Below, in pieces: positions 2,354-43,387 of a stretch of DNA of 44,683 nucleotides. The notes below the pieces were generated by a model. The model was not told the origin of the DNA. It saw only the letters and a program-made list of their open reading frames with translations, and ran no database searches. This DNA is from Octopus sinensis (lineage: Eukaryota): contig NW_021834909.1 in the NCBI RefSeq assembly GCF_006345805.1, forward strand, positions 1 to 44,683. The letters are read 5' to 3'. Position 1 is the stretch's first letter; the number at the start of each line of letters is the position of its first letter. Position numbers and translations under genes: made by a program.

Positions 2354-2386
<33 letters not shown>

Positions 2387-2389
2387 TTT

Positions 2390-2624
2390 AACGGGAAGCT
2401 TTATGAAAATAAACAAAAGACGAAGGCAGGTGGAATACAAACAAACAATTGTATTAGTATGGCGCTCAGGAATATAAATAAAACAAGTCTTTTACGTTTC
2501 GAGCCTACTCTCTTCAACAGAAAGATACAGAAAAGAAACACGGAGAGAACAAGGAGAGAAAAAAGCGTGCAGAAGCTAGCAAATCAACATATATATACAT
2601 ATAATATATATATATAATATAATA

Positions 2625-2674
<50 letters not shown>

Positions 2675-2900
2675 ACGGGAAGCTTTATGAAAATAAACAA
2701 AAGACGAAGGCAGGTGGAATACAAACAAACAATTGTATTAGTATGGCGCTCAGGAATAATAAAACAAGTCTTTTACTTTTCGAGCCTACGCTCTTCAACA
2801 GAAAAAGATACACAGAAAAGAAACACGGAAAGGACAAGGAGAGAAAAAAAATGCGTGCAGAAGCTAGCGAATCAACATGGCGATCTGGTGATCGCCATGT
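2390..2900 (-). repeat. Two copies (2390-2590, 2675-2900) of a Penelope-type terminal repeat separated by (TA)n
   Basis: Near-identical ~200-bp copies, with a third partial copy at 21203-21260. The reverse complement ccacctgccttcgtcttttgtttattttc resembles the 3' end of the Penelope element at 14670-14706. Confidence 0.75.
2487..2525 (-). ncRNA. Hammerhead-like fold (variant core CUGUUGA)
   Basis: UCUUU-CUGUUGA-A-GAGAGUAGGCUC-GAAAC-GUA-AAAGA: 5-bp stem I, GAG/CUC stem II, palindromic ACGU stem III. Confidence 0.5.
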
Positions 2901-6511: not shown

Positions 6512-8114
6512 CAGTTGCGGCCAAAATATTCAGAACGGCATTGTTTTCGTCAGAAAAGTAGATATATTTTTTTATCAAAGTTGTTTTATATTCTATAATT
6601 TTCACATACAATAAATACAATATTATGTGTTATTGCCGGAGAATTTGGTGTAATTTTAGAGGATAATACAAAAGTTATGAATGATTTAGTGATTTACTGC
6701 AAAACCCATGGCGACCAAAATGATCAGAACGGTTGCTTTTACTCCGTGTTTTAGTATATTTAACCGGCGAACTCTAATGTTTTGAATTTGTTTACGAGAC
6801 GGTTCGTTTACTAAACATTAGTAAGAATATTTGCAGTGTACTTTGTTAATATAATGCCTCTTACTTCGTTACCAATTCGTCAGCAGATTATTAAGTTTCG
6901 ATGGAAGGATAATTTAAGTATTGGATCTATTGCAAAGATTGTTAACAAGTCAAAAAGTATTGTACACGGTATTCTTAAGGTCTACGATGATTGTGGTTCG
7001 TGTGAAGCAAGAAAGTTTACAGGTAGGCCAAGAAAAAAAGACCAAGAGAAAAGATCGTGCTATGGTAAAATTGGTTAAAAAGGACAGATTTAAAACTGCT
7101 GCTGCTGTTACTCGGAAAATGAGCATTGTATTGAAGAAAACTTTATCTCGAAAAACTGTGTCTCGTCGTTTAGTTGAATATGACCTACAAGCAAGAGCAC
7201 CTGCAGTGAAGCTACTGATCAGCTCCAAGAATAAAAAGTGTCGTCTTACTTTTGCAACCGAACATGTGTTGTGGTCTCAAGAAAAATGGCAAACGGTGCA
7301 TTTCAGTGATGAATCTAACTTTATGTTATTTGGCTCAGATGGGAAGAGGTACGTTCGTAGAAAAGTAGGTGAAAAATTGTTGTCTAAATGCCTTAAGACT
7401 AGTGTTAAATTCGGTGGAGGAAGTGTCATGGTTTGGGGGGTTATATCTGGAGATGGTGTGGGCCCTTTGGTGCGATTACATGAAAAGGCAAATGCAGGAG
7501 TTTATAAACAACTTGTAAAAGATCATGTCTTGCCTGTGCTGAGAAATTCAACTAAGCGACCACCCATAGTCATGCAGGACAATGCCCCATGTCACAAGGC
7601 TAAGGTGGTCATGAACTTCCTCAAGGCTGAAAAGGTTATTGTCATGGATTGGCCTGTTCGAAGCCCACATCTCAATCCTATTGAAAATGTGTGGAATATT
7701 CTAGGAGAACGTTTGAATGCCAGAAATCCTAAAACAACTGAGCAATTATGGAATGCCCTTCAGGAAGAATGGAATAAGATCACCCAGCAAGAAATTGAAA
7801 ATTTAGTTTCCTCATGCAGTCGAAGATGTCAGAGTGTGATTGAAGCTAAAGGGCTTCACACTAAATATTAAATAATTCCAGTATTCTCTGTCATTTTTGA
7901 TTACTTTGTTATTTTTTCAACCGTTCTGATCATTTTGGCCGCCATAGGTTTTGCAGAAAATCCCTAAATCATCCATAACTTTTGTATTATCCTCTCAAAT
8001 TAGACCAAAATCTCAGACAATAACAATTTATAAAATATAAAACTACTTTGATAAAAAGTTATACCTACTTTTCTGACGAAAACAATGCCGTTCTGAACAT
8101 TTTGGCCGCAACTG
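6512..8114 (+). mobile_element. Tc1-family DNA transposon, full length (~1.6 kb)
   Basis: TA|CAGTTGCGGCCAAAAT...ATTTTGGCCGCAACTG|TA, with a TA target duplication, long TIRs (6512-6734, 7919-8114) and an internal transposase. Confidence 0.97.
6854..7871 (+). pseudogene. Tc1 DD34E transposase with one +1 frameshift (~338 aa if repaired)
   Basis: MPLTSLPIRQQII..GRPRK lies in one frame and shifts in an A7 run near 7033-7039. The next frame has FSDES, GGGSVMVWG, MQDNAPCH-(34 residues between D and E)-SPHLNPIENVW, and ends GLHTKY*. Confidence 0.95.
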
Positions 8115-13129: not shown

Positions 13130-14704
13130 AAACCGGCCTGCAAGGGTGGAGCCGTGGTGGTGTGACGCACGGACATCTACAATGCTGAAGCTCTCCGCCA
13201 ACTTCAAGACACCTCATTCTTCTGCACTCTGCCCTTCAACCCCACGCTTACCTACCATCAGACGGTGTCCTCCTTTGTCCATGACCCCATCTCTTGCTCC
13301 CGTCTCCATCCCGCCGTATGCAACGTCATTGTTCCCCCTCCTCGCACCTCCACCATTTGCTTACCTCCCCAAATCCACAAACACAACAACCCTGGTCGCT
13401 CCATCGTCCCTGCTTGTAACTGTCCCACGGAGCTTATCTCTCAATACCTCGATCGTGTCCTTACCCCACTACTGGTTTCCCTCCTATCACACATCCATAA
13501 CACTGACCATGCTCTTCGTCTGCTTCTTCTTCCCTCCTGGTCTCTGTAAACTCTTCTTCACTCTTGATATCGAGAGTCTATATACGGTGTCCCCACACCA
13601 CGAAGGACTTCTTGCCCTCAAACGTTTCCTAGACCTTTGACCCAACCCCAAACATGACACGTCCACAATTTTTCCTCTGGCCGAACTTGTTCTCTCTCTC
13701 AACAGCTTCTTGTTCGCGAGGGAGTTTTACAAACATTTCTCGGGAGTGTCCATGGGAACGAGAACGGGGCCCAACTATGCTATGCGGACCTGTTCGCTGG
13801 CTACGTTGAAGCCCAAATATTTTGAAGATTCACTGGTCCCACTCCCAAACTATAGGGTCTTTATATTCATGCCTGTATCGGTTCGCAAACAACTAGTCTC
13901 CTTCCTCTCTTTTTTCAAATCCTTCCATCCTGCCCTCGAATTCCCCTACACCATTTCCAACACTTCCGTCGCCTTTCTCGACATTTCGGTCAACATACAC
14001 AACTTCACACTCACTATCTCCATCCACTACAAATACAGTGACTTACACTCATACCTCAACTTCTCCTTCTCTTCCATTACTCAAACCAAGCCCTCCATCC
14101 CCCACTCCTCATTCACCCGTCTGCGCAGGATCTACAGTGACAACCATAAATTCGAGACTCGGTCTCAACTCATGGCTCGCCACTTCATTCTTCGTGGCTA
14201 TCCTCTCACCACTAACCACACCGCCCTCGCCAGAGCACGTTCCTCTGGCCTCTCCACTCGCACTTGCCCCGCCGTTTCTCGTTTCCCGTTTCCAGCTACC
14301 AATCATCCTTACCTACCACTCATCCACCTTGCCTCTCCAACGCATTAATCTCCGAGCCTTCCGACGACTCAACTCCGACAAATCTAATTCGCACATCTCT
14401 CCCGACCTACCCCTCCCATCTGTAAACGAGCCCACAACCTACGTGACCACATGGTCCACAATTTCTTCCCTAACCCCACCTCCCGACCTTTCTCGTTTCC
14501 CTGCTCCCGCCACGGTGTCCCACTTATCCCTACCGCTCCAACACCACCAATCTCACAGGTACCCATCATAACACTGACTCCTATACAGGCACTTCTAGCA
14601 ACATCATTTACTGCACCTTCTGCACTTTCTGTCCTCTCTACATCGGTCAAACACCTGCTTCGTCTTTTCATACACCTGGCTTCGTCTTTTGTTTTTTCTG
14701 CAAA

Positions 14705-14706
<2 letters not shown>
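13130..14706 (+). mobile_element. Penelope-like retroelement, 5'-truncated, decayed RT + GIY-YIG
   Basis: Motifs across frames: KPACKGGAVVV, PQIHKHNNPGRSIV..CNCPTELISQYLD, FTLDIESLYT, GVSMGTRTGPNYA, FLDISV, IHYK.SDLHSYLNF, SIPHS.FTRLRRIYSD, RGYP, SNIIYC..C..CPLYIGQT. Flanked by (TA)n. Confidence 0.95.
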
Positions 14707-14748
<42 letters not shown>

Positions 14749-14749
14749 A

Positions 14750-15136
14750 TTCTTCTATTCTTTTACTTGCTTCAGTCATTTTACTGGAGCCATGCAGGGG
14801 CACCGCCTTTAGTCGTAGAAATCGACCCAGAACTTATTCTTTGTTATTCTTTGTAAGCCTACTACTTATCCTATCGGTTTATTTTTGCTGAACCGCTAGT
14901 TTACAGGGACGTAAACACTCCAAAATCGGTTGTCAATCGATGGTGGAGGGATAAAGACAGACAGAGACACAGACATATATGCATATATACATATATACAA
15001 CGGGCTTCTTTTAGTTTCCGTCTGCCAATTCCACTCACAAGGCTTTGGTCAGCCCAAGGTGTCACACAGTCGAAATGTACCCTGAACCATGTGGTTGGTA
15101 AGCAAGCTTCTTACCACACAGCCGTGCTGCGCCTAT
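14750..15136 (-). mobile_element. SINE family A
   Basis: Same motifs, with a small internal deletion. Confidence 0.88.
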
Positions 15137-23195: not shown

Positions 23196-23669
23196 TAATA
23201 TATATATTATATATTATATATATACATATATATAATATATGAACATGCGTACGAACCTACAGACGTAATATATAGACATACATACAAAACACAACACAAT
23301 CGCGGGCGCACAGCACAAAAACAGACGGACAAACACACTCACACACATGCATATGTGCATGTGTATGTATAAGGTTTTGAGTATGTATTTGTGTGTCTAC
23401 GTGTCTCGTCAATGATTCTACGAAAGCAAACATCGATTGATGGAAGAACTCGTTGCTGTAGCTAAAGTCAAATTTATTTTCGAAAACCGTTTGACGATAC
23501 ATTAAGCATCGCCTGTCAGCCTTTTCTTTATAGTGCACTCACAGTAACACACACATACACACACACATGCTCACACCGCAGACACACCACAAACTCCCCC
23601 CACAAATGTATACATGTACATATATATACATATATACATATATACATATGTATACATATATATATATAT

Positions 23670-23722
<53 letters not shown>

Positions 23723-23728
23723 TATATT

Positions 23729-26700
23729 AAAAGGGCTTAGTAAAATAAATTACTTTGCCGCATACTGACTCATTAGAAATAGCAGCTAAAAAACTTTTTT
23801 AAAGCTATTTCTAATACTTAAGAAAATCTCTCTCTATATAGTGTTTGCTTAATTCAACTCACAAAAGTTTGGCGGTAAGGACATCGAAAAATCAAATGCT
23901 AAGGCTATTTGAGAACGTACGTTTCAAGATTAGTCAAAACAACACTTCTATCATCAGCTCAGAAATTCCTTGGTTTGGATTTGGAACACTGAAAATAAGA
24001 ACACCCTTTCGAAGATCTGCTCGTAACTAACAGTGCCAACAAATTCAAATAAGCAAGCGAAGAATCTCTGTTCTCCCCTTTTCCACCACGTGGGTTAAAA
24101 TCATCAAACACTATGCTTATTTCGTTCGTAAATCCGAAGCATTAATCAGAGGGAGATTAATTATAATTTCAACAATTGAGGGCAAAATTAATTAATTATT
24201 AATCAATTTCACCAGTGTTCAGTATGCAAGGGACCATTCAAGGCGAATTCAAATTATTACATTATATAAAAGGGCTTAGTAAAATAAATTACTTGCCGCA
24301 TACTGAACTCATTAGAAATAGCAGCTAAAAACTTTTTTAAAGCTTTTCAATACTTAAAGAAAATCTCTCTCATATATAGTGTTGCTTAATTCAACTCACA
24401 AAAGTTTGGGGGTAAGGACATCGAAAAATCAAATGCTAAGGTTATTTGAGAACGTACTTTTCAAGATTAGTCAAAACAACACTTCTATCATCAGCTCAAA
24501 ATTCCCTTGGTTTGGATTTGGAAACACTGAAAATAAGAACATACCCTTTCGAAGATCTGCTCGTAACTAACAGTGCCAACAAATTCAATAAGCAAGCGAA
24601 GAATCTCTGTTCTCCCCTTTCCACCAGCGTGGTTAAAATCATCAAACACTATGCTTATTTCGGTAAAATCCGAAGCATTATCAGAGGGAGATTAATTATA
24701 TTTCAACAATTGAGGGCAAAATTAATTATTATTATCAATTTCACCAAGTGTTCAGTATGCAAAGGGACCATTCAAGGCGAATTCAAATTATTACATTATA
24801 TAAAAGGGCTTAGTAAAATAAATTACTTTGCCGCATACTGAACTCATTAGAATAGCAGCTAAAAACTTTTTTAAAGCTATTTCTAATACTTAAAGAAAAT
24901 CTCTCTCATATATAGTTTTGCTAATTCAACTCACAAAAGTTTGGGGGTAAGGACATCGAAAAATTCTAAGGTTATTTGAGAACGTACGTTTCAAGATTAG
25001 TCAAAACAACACTTCTATCATCAGCTCAGAAATTCCTTGGTTTGGATTTGGAAACACTGAAAATAAGAACATACCCTTTCGAAGATCTGCTCGTAACTAA
25101 CATGCCAACAAATTCAAATAAGCAAGCGAAGAATCTCTGTTCTCCCCTTTCCACCAGCGTGGGTTAAAATCATCAAACACTATGCTTATTTCGGTAAAAT
25201 CCGAAGCATTAATCAGAGGGAGATTAATTATAATTTCAACAATTGAGGGCAAAATTAATTAATTATTAATCAATTTCACCAAGTGTTCAGTATGCCAAGG
25301 GACCATTCAAGGCGAATTCAAATTATTACATTATATAAAAGGGCTTAGTAAAATAAATTACTTTGCCGCATACTGAACTCATAGAAATAGCAGCTAAAAA
25401 ACTTTTTTAAAGCTATTTCTAATACTTAAAGAAAATCTCTCTCATATATAGTGTTTGCTTAATTCAACTCACAAAAGTTTGGGTGTAAGGACATCGAAAA
25501 ATCAATGCTAAGGTTATTTGAGAACGTACGTTTCAATTAGTCAAAACAACACTTCTATCATCAGCTCAGAAATTCCTGGTTTGGATTTGGAACACTGAAA
25601 ATAAGAACATACCCTTTCGAAGATCTGCTCGTACTAACAGTGCCAACAAATTCAAATAAGCAAGCGAAGATCTCTGTTCTCTCCTTCCCCTTTCCACCAC
25701 GTGGGTTAAAATCATCAAACACTATGCTTATTTCGGTAAACCGAAGCATTATCAGAGGGAGATTAATTATAATTTCAACAATTGAGGGCAATTAATTAAT
25801 TATTAATCAATTTCACCAAGTGTTCAGTATGCAAAGGGACCATTCAAGGCGAATTCAAATTATTAATTATATAAAAGGGCTTAGTAAAATAAATTACTTT
25901 GCCGCATACTGAACTCATTAGAAATAGCAGCTTAAAACTTTTTTAAAGCTATTTCTAATACTTAAAGAAAATCTCTCTCATATAAGTGTTTGCTTAATTC
26001 AACTCACAAAAGTTTGGGGGTAAGGACATCGAAAAATGCTAAGGTTATTTGAGAACGTACGTTTCAAGATTAGTCAAAACAACACTTCTATCATCACTCA
26101 GAAATTCCTTGGTTTGGATTTGGAAACACTGAAAATAAGAAATACCCTTTCGAAGATCTGCTCGTAACTAACAGTGCCAACAAATTCAAATAAGCAAGCG
26201 AAGATCTCTGTTCTCCCCTTTTCCACCACGTGGGTTAAAATCATCAAACACTATGCTTATTTCGGTAAAATCCGAAGCATAATCAGAGGGAGTTAATTAT
26301 AATTTCAACATTGAGGGCAAAATTAATTAATTATTATCAATTTCACCAAGTGTTCAGTAGCAAAGGGACCATTCAAGGCGAATTCAAATTATTACATTAT
26401 ATAAAAGGGCTAGTAAATAAATTACTTTGCCGCATACTGAACTCATTAGAAATAGCAGCTAAAAAACTTTTTTAAGCTATTTCTAATACTTAAAGAAAAT
26501 CTCTCTCATATATAGTGTTTGCTTAATTCAACTCACAAAAGTTTGGTGTAAGGACATCGAAAAATCAAATGCTAAGGTTATTTGAGAACGTACTTTTCAA
26601 GATTAGTCAAAACAACACTTCTATCATCAGCTCAGAATTCCTTGGTTTGGATTTGGAAACACTGAAAATAAGAACATACCCTTTCGAAGATCTGCTCGTA

Positions 26701-28575
26701 ACTAACAGTGCCAACAAATTCAAATAAGCAAGCGAAGAATCTCTGTTCTCCTCCCCTTTCCACCAGCGTGGGTTAAAATCATCAAACACTATGCTTATTT
26801 CGGTAAAATCCGAAGCATTAATCAGAGGGAGATTAATTATAATTTCAACAATTGAGGGCAAAATTATTAATTATTAATCATTTCACCAAGTGTTCAGTAT
26901 GCAAAGGGACCATTCAAGGCGAATTCAATTATTACATTATATAAAAGGGCTTAGTAAAATAAATTACTTTGCCGCATACTGAACTCATTAGAAATAGCAG
27001 CTAAAAAACTTTTTTAAAGCTATTTCTAATACTTAAAGAAAATCTCTCTCATATATAGTGTTTGCTTAATTCAACTCACAAAAGTTTGGGGTAAGGACAT
27101 CGAAAAATGCTAAGGTTATTTGAGAACGTACGTTTCAAGATTAGTAAAACAACACTTCTATCATCAGCTCAGAATTCCTTGGTTTGGATTTGGAAACACT
27201 GAAAATAAGAACATACCCTTTCGAAGATCTGCTCGTAACTAACAGTGCCAAAAAATTCAAATAAGCAAGCGAAGAATCTCTGTTCTCCCCTTCCACCAGC
27301 GTGGGTTAAAATCATCAAACACTATGCTTATTTCGGTAAAATCCGAAGCATTAATCAGAGGGAGATTAATTATATTTCAACAATTGAGGGAAAATTAATT
27401 AATTATTAATCATTTCACCAAGTGTTCAGTATGCAAAGGGACCATTCAAGGCGAATTCAAATTATTACATATATAAAAGGCTTAGTAAAATAAATTACTT
27501 TGCCGCATACTGAACTCATTAGAAATATGCAGCTAAAAACTTTTTTAAAGCTATTTCTAATACTTAAAGAAAATCTCTCTCATATATAGTGTTTGCTTAA
27601 TTCAACTCACAAAAGTTTGGGGTAAGGACATCGAAAAATCAAATGCTAAGGTTATTTGAGAACGTACGTTTCAAGATTAGTCAAAACAACACTTCTAATC
27701 ATCAGCTCAAAATTCTTGGTTTTGATTTGGAACACTGAAAATAAGAACATACCCTTTCGAAGATCTGCTCGTAACTACAGTGCCACAAATTCAATAAGCA
27801 AGCGAAGAATCTCTGTTCTCCCCTTTCCACCAGCGTGGTTAAAATCATCAAACACTATGCTTATTTCGGTAAAATCCGAAGCATTAATCAGAGGGAGATT
27901 AATTATAATTTCAACAATTGAGGCAAAATTAATTAATTATTAATCAATTTCACCAAGTGTTCAGTATGCAAGGGACCATTCAAGGCGAATTCAAATTATT
28001 ACATTATATAAAAGGGCTTAGTAAAATAAATTACTTTGCCGCATACTGAACTCATTAGAAATAGCAGCTAAAAACTTTTTTAAAGCTATTCTAATACTTA
28101 AAGAAAATCTCTCTCATATATAGTGTTTGCTTAATTCAACTCACAAAAGTTTGGGGTAAGGACATCGAAAAATGCTAAGGTTATTTGAGAACGTACGTTT
28201 CAAGATTAGTCAAAACAACACTTCTATCATCAGCTCAGAAATTCCTTGGTTTGGATTTGGAAACCTGAAAATAAGAACATACCCTTTCGAAGATCTGCTC
28301 GTAACTAACAGTGCCAACAAATTCAAATAAGCAAGCGAAGAATCTCTGTTCTCCCCTTTCCACCCTCGTGGGGTTAAAATCATCAACACTATGCTTATTT
28401 CGGTAAAATCCGAAGCATTAATCAGAGGGAGATTAATTATAATTTCAACAATTGAGGGCAAAATTAATTAATTATTAATCAATTTCACCAAGTGTTCAGT
28501 ATGCAAAGGGACCATTCAAGGCGAATTCAAATTATTACATTATATAAAAGGGCTTAGTAAAATAAATTACTTTGC
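23729..28575 (-). repeat. Tandem array, 9 full copies of a ~535-bp hammerhead-containing unit
   Basis: Unit starts (aaaagggcttag) at about 23729, 24268, 24802, 25337, 25873, 26403, 26943, 27475 and 28010, with a 30-bp partial at 28546. Strand is the hammerhead sense. Confidence 0.98.
23910..23961 (-). ncRNA. Type I hammerhead ribozyme, unit 1 (also at ~24447, 24977, 25519, 26050, 26583, 27121, 27657, 28186)
   Basis: UGAG-CUGAUGA-U-AGA..UCU-U-GAAAC-GUAC-GUU-CUCA. Stem I extends via AAGG/CCUU. Confidence 0.75.
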
Positions 28576-28673
28576 TTGCTTATTTGAATTTGTTGGCACT
28601 GTTAGTTACGAGCAGATCTTCGAAAGGGTATGTTCTTATTTTCAGTGTTTCCAAATCCAAACCAAGGAATTTC

Positions 28674-28725
28674 TGAGCTGATGATAGAAGTGTTGTTTTG
28701 ACTAATCTTGAAACGTACGTTCTCA
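28674..28725 (+). ncRNA. Type I hammerhead ribozyme (inverted block, copy 1)
   Basis: tgagctgatgatagaagtgttgttttgactaatcttgaaacgtacgttctca read directly. Confidence 0.75.
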
Positions 28726-29217
28726 AATAACCTTAGCATTTGATTTTTCGATGTCCTTACCCCCAAACTTTTGTGAGTTGAATTAAGCAAACACTATATA
28801 TGAGAGAGATTTTCTTTAAGTATTAGAAATAGCTTTAAAAAAGTTTTTTAGCTGCTATTTCTAATGAGTTCAGTATGGCGGCAAAGTAATTTATTTTACT
28901 AAGCCCTTTTATATAATGTAATAATTTGAATTCGCCTGAATGGTCCCTTTGCATACTGAACACTTGGTGAAATTGATTAATAATTAATTAAATTTGCCCT
29001 CAATTGTTGAATTATAATTAATCTCCCTCTGATTAATGCTTCGGATTTTACCGAAATAAGCATAGTGTTTGATGATTTTAACCCACGCTGGTGGAAAGGG
29101 GAGAACAGAGATTCTTCGCTTGCTTATTTGAATTTGTTGGCACTGTTAGTTACGAGCAGATCTTCGAAAGGGTATGTTCTTATTTTCAGTGTTTCCAAAT
29201 CCACACCAAGGAATTTC

Positions 29218-29269
29218 TGAGCTGATGATAGAAGTGTTGTTTTGACTAATCTTGAAACGTACGTTCTCA
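29218..29269 (+). ncRNA. Type I hammerhead ribozyme (inverted block, copy 2)
   Basis: Same sequence as 28674-28725. Confidence 0.75.
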
Positions 29270-29553
29270 AATACCTTAGCATTTGATTTTTCGATGTCCT
29301 TACCCCCAAACTTTTGTGAGTTGAATTAAGCAACACTATATATGAGAGAGATTTTCTTTAAGTATTAGAATAGCTTTAAAAAAGTTTTTTAGCTGCTATT
29401 TCTAATGAGTTCAGTATGCGGCAAAGTAATTTATTTTACTAAGCCCTTTTATATAATGTAATAATTTGAATTCGCCTTGAATGGTCCCTTTGCATACTGA
29501 ACACTTGGTGAAATTGATTAATATTAATTAATTTTGCCCTCAATTGTTGAAAT

Positions 29554-29584
<31 letters not shown>

Positions 29585-29637
29585 TATGCAATTGCTAAAA
29601 AAACATTCGTGAAGTAAAATCATGTAGCAACACCAAA

Positions 29638-41399: not shown

Positions 41400-43125
41400 T
41401 AAAAAATGAAGTTCGAAAATGCTGCTGTATTATACAATTTTTGATTTTTATTTATATATACATTATAACATGTTTCAGTTCCTGAAATGACCTTATCAAA
41501 AAAAGTTATATATAAAAAAGAGACAAGCTCATGCCGTCAAACACAAAAATTCATTTATAATACACAACGGAGTCAACATCTTAGAGTTCATGTATAGTTG
41601 ATATATATTTTGAAGTAATATGTTCAAGTGTTCGATGCAGTGGCCCACGGTGGCGATACGTATTCATACAAAAACAGATCAAAGTGGTGGAAAGCGGTCA
41701 ATAACAAAGATTGATTTTTCCGAAGAGCGAGGAATTCATTTTTACCTAAGCAATTGTGATGACCCATGGTGGAAGTTCGCTGGGTGGTTCTTGTGAGTTT
41801 TTGTGAAATGCTCGGTTTTATAATGCCTGTTAGGTGGTCAATCTAGCGTAGCGTAACGTCATCAATGTTTTGACCATCGTTTCGTTAGGTGTGCTTTAAT
41901 CAAGTGGAACGGACTCAATCATTATTTTGACCAATCGCTGCATTAAACTCCTCTTGTTTGTTTCTGTCTTGACCAGTCGCTTCGTTAGTCAGCATAGCGG
42001 GACGTCATCCAGATTCTCCCAATCACGACTTATATAGCTACATTAGATCTGCCCCCTGTCTGTACTTGTTAGGTGACTATTCAGCAGAAAAGGACGTCAT
42101 CAATATTCTGACTAATGACTGTCCCCTGTTTGTATCCTGTCCATTCTAGCAGAGCTAGACGTTATCAACTTGTTGACCAATCAGAATCGGGTCTGACCCT
42201 TGCGTATCGTATTATCAGGGTCAGATTTGCACGAAAGAATTTTTTTTTCCTTTTTTACTAAGGCATATTTCCGTCAGTGAGTGTCTGTTTGAAGTAGCGG
42301 CCGTGGTGAAATTTGTTCTCCTTTTCGGAGGACTTATCTTTTGTTTTAGTATTCCTGGCCCAGGGTGTTTAAACTTGGTCTAATTTTTTTATGAAATATC
42401 GTTTTTATTTTGCGTTGTGTGAAGGTTGCGTTGTCACTGAATTTATAGAGCGGGTTAGTTTAAATTTCGGATTTACATTTCCAGCACATCTATCTATTGT
42501 CCGCTGACCGGTATTTTGCGGTAATCAGGGTTTCTAATTTGTGATTTATGCACCGCCATCCTGTGTTACGTAAGCTTTTTTTGTATGGCCTATATCTGCC
42601 TATTGCAGCCTGCGCATGTTAACGTAAATTAAGTTTTCTGATGCGCAGGTGAAGTTTGTTCTAATGGTGAACTGGTGGCCTTGTTCCAGTATAAATTCTG
42701 ATCCTTCTTTCAAGATGTCACAGATTCCGCAGTTGGGCCTTCCAAATTTCTAACTGCTGTTTGTGGTTGGTGTTGATGCATGTAGCTTGGGTTTAAAATC
42801 CTTTTCAAGGATTTTGGTTGCCGTTTACTTTTAATGATGGTGTGTTTTTTCGAGGATCCGGTTCATCTTTGGGTCTCCCTTTAGTAGGGCTGTGCTTTTA
42901 GTATGGTGTTGAAGGCCTCGTGGGTTGTTGTAGAGATGTAGGGAAGGGTTTTTAATTGTTCTTTCTTTTTTGGTTTTGTTTTGTCTCAGGTCTTCTATAC
43001 TTAATTTAAGTACCCGTTGGATGCACTGTCTATTAGGGGCTGTGGATAGTTTCTATTTGTGAGTGTGGTTCTAAGTTCCTGGAGACGTGTGTGTCGGGTG
43101 TTTGTGTCTGATATTAAGGGTGCAA
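41400..43125 (-). mobile_element. Penelope-like retroelement 3' part (thumb, GIY-YIG, long 3' region)
   Basis: Minus-strand translation across frameshifts: ISDTNTRHTRLQELRTTLTNRNYPQPLID, GRPNCGICDIL, NFTCASENLIYV, RMAVHKSQIRNPDYRKIPVSG. (TA)n on both sides. Confidence 0.88.
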
Positions 43126-43166
<41 letters not shown>

Positions 43167-43387
43167 AATCCTAAACAACGAAGAACAAACACAAAAAAAC
43201 AACAACGTGAGAACGTGTGCATATAAAGTATTAACAGAGGCTCAGGTATATATATATATATATAATTTATATTAATCACAGAAGCACATAAATGCGAAAC
43301 AAGGTGGAAAAAGTTGTACTCGAATACCAAAGGTAGAGTATTATTTCAGATGGAATAAAAGGATGAAAAGCAATGCAATCTACTGTT

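What the first reader, a model, noticed from the sequence alone, without database searches (positions are those of the whole stretch)
23729..29556. 5.8-kb array of a ~535-nt non-coding unit, each with a hammerhead ribozyme: candidate retrozyme / self-cleaving satellite
Seen: 11 copies of a type I hammerhead (CUGAUGA...GAAAC-GUAC-GUU, stem I UGAG/CUCA extended by AAGG/CCUU) at one per unit, with no protein-coding signal and (TA)n flanks. Established: hammerhead tandem repeats (newt satellite 2, schistosome Sm-alpha, cricket pDo500, non-LTR retrozymes) give multimeric transcripts that self-cleave to monomers, and retrozyme monomers circularise and are thought to use Penelope-type RTs. Inference: this is a young cephalopod retrozyme-like family that produces a ~535-nt linear/circular RNA. 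I cannot verify whether it has been described. Stem II opens with a non-canonical U-U and the site is GUU, so activity needs testing.
Basis: partly seen in the sequence, partly recalled or inferred. Interest (0 to 1): 0.9.

Follow-up and report, generated by a model that had tools for sequence, protein, structure and literature searches.

The report
Two-armed hammerhead retrozyme with Penelope ends
This is one copy of a widespread non-coding jumping element that carries a probable self-cutting RNA motif and lands as two back-to-back arms with fixed ends, the footprint of Penelope-type reverse transcriptases, which offers a way to test whether such elements are copied from RNA circles.

Summary
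The repeat and its type I hammerhead motif are real, but this is not an 11-copy head-to-tail satellite. It is one insertion into (TA)n made of two divergent arms of a 545-nt unit: 8.9 units on minus, 1.8 on plus. The genome holds at least 1,027 such insertion ends. In 38 loci picked by similarity alone, 68 of 69 outer ends sit at two fixed unit positions about 100 nt apart, and no two-armed locus has two ends of the same kind. Inner ends vary and do not pile up at the ribozyme cut site. This is the tail-plus-inverted-copy anatomy of Penelope-like elements (PLEs). Relatives down to about 70% identity keep the hammerhead core and stems. Best reading: a non-LTR retrozyme mobilised in trans by a PLE protein priming twice on a template that is continuous across the cut site. 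That template may be a circle (about 50%) or an uncleaved multimer (about 40%); the window's long arm also shows later DNA-level duplication. Cleavage, expression, circularity and the partner PLE are not shown. A known class; I found no report of this insertion anatomy for it.

The parts
23609..23727 (.). (TA)n target repeat, left flank
23723..28575 (-). Long arm, 8.9 units; sense RNA reads on minus; outer 3' end at fixed site E1 (unit phase about 193-198, counted from the cut site), inner end at phase 159. Nine hammerhead motifs, predicted cuts at 23913/4, 24450/1, 24980/1, 25522/3, 26053/4, 26586/7, 27124/5, 27660/1, 28189/90
28570..28575 (.). Head-to-head junction of the arms; 6-nt overlap matching both arms (one mismatch on the plus side)
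28570..29557 (+). Short arm, 1.8 units; inner end at phase 394, outer 3' end at fixed site E2 (phase 296)
28664..28734 (+). Type I hammerhead motif: bipartite stem I, core CUGAUGA at 28678-28684, extended stem II with U.U base and 3x3 internal loop, 2-bp stem III with palindromic loop, predicted cut 28721|28722
29208..29277 (+). Second plus-strand hammerhead motif, predicted cut 29265|29266
28821..28866 (+). Strong hairpin (phase about 100-145); inner arm ends tend to fall at its edges (not significant after correction)
28847..29017 (+). Best-conserved part of the unit across diverged subfamilies (phase about 126-300), spanning both fixed ends; inferred RT-binding element
   Evidence: function is inference
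29458..29557 (+). [quoted passage not shown]
29554..29587 (.). (TA)n target repeat, right flank

Best explanation
The locus is one insertion of a non-autonomous, non-coding retroelement (non-LTR retrozyme) mobilised in trans by a Penelope-like RT/GIY-YIG protein. Shown from sequence: dispersed copies, two divergent arms, two fixed outer ends, (TA)n targets, variable inner ends, read-through of the cut site, conserved hammerhead. Inferred: the protein binds the conserved phase 126-300 element, nicks both strands of (TA)n, and each DNA end primes cDNA at one of two internal RNA sites (E1, E2); both cDNAs run toward the RNA 5' end on a template that is continuous across the cut site, stop at variable points and are joined head to head by microhomology or short filler. 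Whether the template is a circle or an uncleaved multimer is left to the rivals. Some long arms, including the window's, were lengthened or converted later at DNA level.
For: 38 loci chosen by unit similarity only: 68 of 69 visible outer ends at E1 (phase 190-204) or E2 (289-300), the other at 302; all 30 two-armed loci divergent, 28 with one E1 and one E2 (1 cut by the fetch edge, 1 E1+302); 65 of 69 ends run into a TA tract. 60 further loci chosen on an exact E1 end: 46 two-armed, all divergent, 42 E1+E2, none E1+E1. Same two ends in relatives at about 63-90% local identity. 171 arms cross the cut site 283 times; 2 inner ends lie within -3..+4 of it against 2.25 expected. 16 of 70 two-armed loci have both arms ending within 15 nt of the same point, so both came from one molecule. 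PLE precedent: tail at one end, inverted 5'-truncated copy, (TA)n bias (PMC8557442); two internal RT start sites bounding the tail, both strands cut, predicted dimer (PMC11167929). Two PLE families with 770-1,010-aa RT(+GIY-YIG) frames and 89-99% identical copies exist in the genome. Hammerhead: core invariant in 15 variants except N7 and U4; 88% of cells paired against 30-50% for slid structures; 7 double-change cells, 1 of 500 shuffles.
Against: No autonomous partner found: the unit has no significant similarity to 30 loci around one PLE family (best E 0.11) or 20 loci from a second search (best E 1.3). The tail is about 100 nt, not the 30-40 nt described for PLEs. Target-site duplications cannot be read in (TA)n. 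The hammerhead fold lies 7-15 kcal/mol above the predicted minimum in all 15 variants, Rfam gave no hammerhead hit, and a subfamily with U4>C still spread. The covariation rests on related sequences and on a structure drawn from them; only two pairs (columns 18-77, 37-51) are clean U-A/U.G/C-G series.
Confidence: 0.82

Rival explanations
1. Template sub-model A: the hammerhead releases monomers, which are ligated to circles, and both RTs copy one circle by rolling-circle reverse transcription.
For: Arrays are homogeneous by locus: 15 of 23 loci with 3 or more full units share a substitution in every unit (shuffled mean 0.12, maximum 2 in 2,000); 9 of 38 loci carry an allele fixed in both arms and seen in no other sampled locus. 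13 of 23 such loci show no allele shared by only some units, as expected if all units were made at once. No run-off at the cut site. Stop rate is roughly flat, 0.7-1.5 per kb, from 400 to 4,000 nt. The unit folds strongly as a circle (z -5.5 against 40 shuffles). The model was proposed without direct evidence in PMC7229834 and PMC4209133.
Against: No circle was observed. The anole PLE uses unprocessed RNA in vitro and ribozyme mutants do not impair it (PMC11167929). Arm lengths are not one exponential (KS p 0.004). 10 of 23 loci have shared partial alleles. U4>C and U.U/GUU variants spread. Locus homogeneity can also arise by descent plus DNA-level expansion.
Confidence: 0.5
2. Template sub-model B: RT copies uncleaved linear multimer transcripts of existing arms; long arrays are regenerated by tandem duplication in DNA, and the ribozyme is slow or secondary.
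For: Window long arm: a 5-nt deletion in passes 1, 3, 5, 7 and C>A in passes 3 and 7, both absent from the short arm, i.e. nested 2- and 4-unit block duplication or mis-assembly. Similar periodic alleles in one arm of L045, L047, L066; L049 has two partial alleles in register in both arms. Weak predicted ribozyme. In vitro PLE precedent. The 2026 preprint favours local amplification and found cleavage in 1 of 9 Xenopus dimers.
Against: Needs frequent re-expansion at many loci; 137 singleton against 16 shared partial alleles in multi-unit loci (singletons include assembly errors). In my reading no two independent loci share an inner junction. Core and stems are kept across about 30% divergence, so the motif is under selection.
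Confidence: 0.4
3. The second arm is a fold-back DNA copy of the first cDNA rather than a separately primed cDNA.
For: 16 of 70 loci are co-terminal, and inner ends tend to sit at hairpins and palindromes.
Against: A fold-back copy of an E2 arm cannot be longer than it, yet the E1 arm is longer in 26 of 70 loci, by more than one unit in 14. Other TA-rich sites in the unit are not used as ends. Later expansion could mask some cases.
Confidence: 0.15
4. Ordinary satellite DNA or a long-read fold-back artefact with a chance hammerhead-like motif.
For: The window is a small unplaced contig with many indel errors; no Rfam hit; L057 and L059 are locally duplicated and L049/L050 are one insertion on two contigs.
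Against: The same two ends recur at dozens of independent chromosomal loci with different inner junctions and flanks; motif and stems are conserved in diverged subfamilies.
Confidence: 0.03

Closest known systems
Non-LTR retrozymes (coral, mussel, axolotl; PMC7229834; vertebrate survey bioRxiv 10.64898/2026.07.22.740005)
   Same: Non-coding low-GC tandem unit with one type I hammerhead each; co-occurs with PLEs. Axolotl HHR_Amex2 also has a U.U at the base of helix II and a 2-bp helix III and cleaves weakly as monomer (22% in 1 h), better as dimer.
   Different: 545 nt is above the 170-400 nt of the first paper, within the 51-972 nt of the preprint. In the text I read neither describes divergent arms, fixed paired ends or (TA)n targeting. 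The preprint finds pLTR homology for 21 of 57 Xenopus families; none was found here. RNA and cleavage were shown for the coral, mussel and axolotl elements, not here.
EN+ Penelope-like elements (Neptune, Poseidon, Naiad; PMC8557442, PMC11167929)
   Same: Tail at one end, inverted 5'-truncated copy, partial tandems, AT or (TA)n targets, hammerhead in the repeat, two internal start sites.
   Different: No ORF; tail about 100 nt against 30-40 nt; whole element is the repeat; extended rather than minimal hammerhead.
Non-autonomous Chlamys elements such as MRC1 (PMC8557442)
   Same: Non-autonomous PLE derivatives with multicopy head-to-tail insertions.
   Different: Green algae; most Chlamys lack a canonical hammerhead; they generally resemble their autonomous partner at the 3' end, which was not found here.
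Newt satellite 2, schistosome Sm-alpha, cricket pDo500
   Same: Tandem type I hammerhead repeats.
   Different: Sequence and insertion anatomy not compared.

Membership tests
Non-LTR retrozyme | Type I hammerhead motif in each tandem unit | tested here: met
   11 of 11 units carry the motif, 8 with the full core
Non-LTR retrozyme | Non-coding, GC below 45%, no LTR/PBS/PPT layout | tested here: met
   GC 32.8%; longest Met frame 45 aa; tandem layout. PBS/PPT not searched separately.
Non-LTR retrozyme | Dispersed dimers to multimers, co-occurring with autonomous PLEs | tested here: met
Non-LTR retrozyme | Self-cleavage of the transcript | not testable with these tools
   needs in vitro transcription
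Non-LTR retrozyme | Unit-length linear and circular RNA in vivo | not testable with these tools
   only assembled contigs were available
Type I hammerhead ribozyme | Core CUGANGA / GAAA / NUH with three stems, open at stem I | tested here: met
   site GUU in the window, GUA in 4 of 15 variants
Type I hammerhead ribozyme | Canonical 10.1-11.1 base pair | tested here: not met
   U.U in the window; a standard pair in 5 of 15 variants; U.U has an active precedent
Type I hammerhead ribozyme | Match to an Rfam hammerhead model | tested here: not met
   (150 of 196 rows listed)
Non-autonomous PLE derivative | Two fixed 3' ends separated by a tail | tested here: met
   68 of 69 ends; tail about 100 nt, longer than described
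Non-autonomous PLE derivative | Inverted, variably 5'-truncated copy at the 5' end | tested here: met
   76 of 76 two-armed loci divergent
Non-autonomous PLE derivative | Insertion bias to (TA)n | tested here: met
   65 of 69 ends
Non-autonomous PLE derivative | Sequence shared with the pLTR of an autonomous PLE | tested here: inconclusive
   none with two families; other PLE families not sampled, 150 of 9,864 candidates scored
Autonomous PLE | RT plus GIY-YIG ORF | tested here: not met
Satellite DNA | Long head-to-tail arrays at few loci with arbitrary ends | tested here: not met
   median arm 293 nt, fixed ends, at least 1,027 ends genome-wide

The most novel reading that the evidence does not exclude
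Each insertion is the fossil of twin-primed rolling-circle reverse transcription: a dimeric Penelope-type protein copies a single ribozyme-made RNA circle from two fixed sites at once. The hammerhead acts as a one-unit bottleneck that turns any single-unit mutation into a homogeneous new array, and the element is recognised by structure, without being a pLTR derivative of its helper. More than a thousand loci would then record how animal ribozyme circles enter the genome and how PLE tandem and inverted structures arise.
Probability: 0.33. Interest if true: 0.85.

Novelty: new variant of a known kind. Interest (0 to 1): 0.62.

Why it matters
That PLE enzymes mobilise animal retrozymes, and do so from circular RNA, is a standing proposal supported so far by co-occurrence and pLTR similarity. 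This family carries the PLE insertion footprint itself at many young loci and defines two exact start sites and a conserved cis element on a 545-nt RNA. That gives a small defined substrate for testing circle against multimer templates, the role of the ribozyme, and the origin of PLE inverted copies.

Tried and rejected
Rfam: no hammerhead hit; top hits were miRNA models on microsatellites. Tandem Repeats Finder tool missed the array because of its 500-nt period limit; rerun with 2,000. My first stem II pairing was replaced after comparing variants; the structure was mis-indexed and is discarded. Apparent cluster of single-arm 5' ends at phase 352-398 did not recur in 40 more loci. 'Same phase, different lap' junctions (7 of 38, nominal p 0.005) are not used for a circle: at least four sit on hairpins or palindromes where alignments self-match. 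Clusters of inner ends at phases 95-106, 125-136 and 8-19 do not survive correction. A heterodimer-circle reading of the window's alternating deletion was rejected because the short arm and the last passes lack it. A single-exponential arm-length model was rejected. Partner search through two PLE fragments of the window found two families without similarity to the unit. Sequencing runs: no RNA holder listed; 4 of 24 runs laid, all contigs, three only guessed to be RNA and holding mostly diverged relatives, so nothing on expression, strand or circularity. Earlier scan findings: none. Rows dropped: L050 (same insertion as L049), second copies in L057 and L059, arms cut by fetch edges, one set-A locus parsed as three segments (left out of pair counts), L069-L072 in the arm-length fit.
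Full report
Observation. The stretch is a repeat of a non-coding unit, but in two orientations: 23723-28575 holds about 9 units whose hammerhead strand is minus, and 28570-29557 holds 1.8 units on plus. The arms point away from each other, overlap by six bases at the junction, and both run out into (TA)n. The consensus of 128 cut-to-cut units is 545 nt; the window's copies are shorter through 1-nt deletions. Eleven hammerhead motifs are present, 8 with the full core.

Family. A search of the own genome gave 248 matches among 39 scored of 750 candidates, the full-length ones listed at 96-99% identity, on many chromosomes. Exact patterns gave 1,027 E1-TA junctions, 326 E2-TA junctions, 559 cores of the window's subfamily and 1,254 hits for a motif of diverged relatives, with 0 for each reversed control. 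Full units range from 69% to 99% identity to the consensus. Public runs holding at least half of the sampled words come from 7 studies and 6 coded organism labels, one of which may be the source; the host taxon was not tested.

Insertion anatomy. In 38 loci chosen by similarity only, 68 of 69 visible outer ends fall at phase 190-204 (E1) or 289-300 (E2); all 30 two-armed loci are divergent and 28 have one of each; 65 of 69 ends run into TA. In 60 loci chosen on an E1 end, all 46 two-armed loci are divergent, 42 are E1+E2 and none is E1+E1. Inner ends are spread over the unit. 171 complete arms cross the cut site 283 times and end near it 2 times against 2.25 expected, so the copied template was continuous there. 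In 16 of 70 loci both arms end at the same point and differ only by the tail, but the E1 arm is longer in 26 of 70, which a simple fold-back cannot give. PLEs are described with a tail at one end, an inverted 5'-truncated copy and (TA)n bias (PMC8557442), and the anole PLE starts reverse transcription at two internal sites bounding the tail, cuts both strands and is predicted to be a dimer (PMC11167929). I infer twin priming by a PLE protein at E1 and E2. The region spanning these sites is the best-conserved part of the unit.

Ribozyme. Across 15 natural variants the core varies only at N7 and U4, and stems I-III hold: 88% of cells paired against 30-50% for slid structures, 7 double-change cells, 1 of 500 shuffles. 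The variants are related and the structure was drawn from them, so this is supportive, not a p-value; two pairs show clean U-A/U.G/C-G series. Against strong activity: U.U at 10.1-11.1, a GUU site, a fold 7-15 kcal/mol above the minimum in all 15, no Rfam hit, and a U4>C subfamily that kept spreading. Precedents: axolotl HHR_Amex2 has the same U.U and cleaves better as a dimer; U4C lowers activity but permits viroid infectivity (PMC3088659). Stem III here is a self-complementary 8-mer, as in dimer-acting hammerheads (PMC4209133). Cleavage is likely slow and is not shown.

Template. For a circle: 15 of 23 multi-unit loci share a substitution in all units (shuffled mean 0.12), 9 of 38 carry a private allele fixed in both arms, distances are 0.0040 within arms, 0.0051 between arms and 0.0077 between loci, and the stop rate is about flat beyond 400 nt; 13 of 23 loci are star-like. 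For an uncleaved multimer with later DNA expansion: 10 of 23 loci have shared partial alleles, the window's long arm shows nested 2- and 4-unit periodicity absent from its short arm, arm lengths are not one exponential, and the anole PLE uses unprocessed RNA in vitro. Assembly polishing and mis-assembly could create or erase partial alleles. I put the circle at 0.5 and the multimer at 0.4; a mixture is plausible.

Partner. Two PLE families with long frames exist: up to 1,009 aa (RVT_1 above cut-off, GIY-YIG below) and 781 aa (GIY-YIG above cut-off, RVT_1 just below), with copies 89-99% alike. Neither resembles the unit. The helper is unidentified, and other PLE families were not sampled.

Literature. 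The class is known, PLE mobilisation from circles was proposed in PMC7229834 and PMC4209133, and a 2026 preprint argues that animal retrozymes derive from pLTRs. I found no description of this family or of two-armed, fixed-end retrozyme insertions in nine searches. Seen: PMC11167929 parts 1-2 of 4; the preprint parts 1-3 of 5 plus passages; PMC7229834 passages and parts 3-4 of 6; passages only of PMC8557442, PMC4209133, PMC3088659, PMC6765202, PMC7761336 and PMC10886601. The supplements of PMC7229834 and of the preprint were not seen and may list this family; Repbase and Dfam were not available. Hammerhead numbering and the twin-priming term are recalled.

Verdict. Real and mobile; a non-LTR retrozyme-like element working as a non-autonomous PLE (0.82). 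New variant of a known kind. Interest 0.62.

Noticed in passing
L183:944-1369 (G000:C1, query): A second short hammerhead element, about 425 nt, whose stem II has the same AGG/UAA internal loop as the L143 variant; its hit table shows two recurring 3' ends about 78 nt apart and inverted partial copies (4,020 candidates, 40 scored). Probably another two-ended retrozyme family.
   Followed up: partly
window 2386-2900: Two (TA)n-flanked copies of a pLTR-like repeat with a minimal hammerhead on minus, core mutated; the same repeat with an intact core lies upstream of an 835-aa PLE frame in L115.
   Followed up: partly
window 13130-14900 (+): Decayed PLE RT region in several frames; 9,864 first-look candidates in the genome, relatives with frames up to 1,009 aa.
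   Followed up: partly
window 43001-43345 (-): Fragment resembling another PLE family; relatives have a 781-aa RT/GIY-YIG frame preceded by a 479-aa frame of no clear family.
   Followed up: partly
window 6918-7871 (+): 317-aa Tc1/mariner transposase frame (HTH_Tnp_Tc3_2 and DDE_3).
   Followed up: no
L069-L073, L076, L085, L151: Subfamily with hammerhead U4>C, partly with a compensated stem I pair, still forming multi-unit arms.
   Followed up: partly
L057:3554-7945 and L059:2061-7556: Whole insertions duplicated in tandem with flanks (real or assembly); L057 also has an older subfamily copy beside the young one.
   Followed up: no
L132, L135, L143, L163, L167 inner junctions: Five loci of an older subfamily have an arm whose match to the consensus stops near phase 445, where that subfamily has an insertion of about 18 nt with a hairpin; partly an alignment effect.
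   Followed up: no
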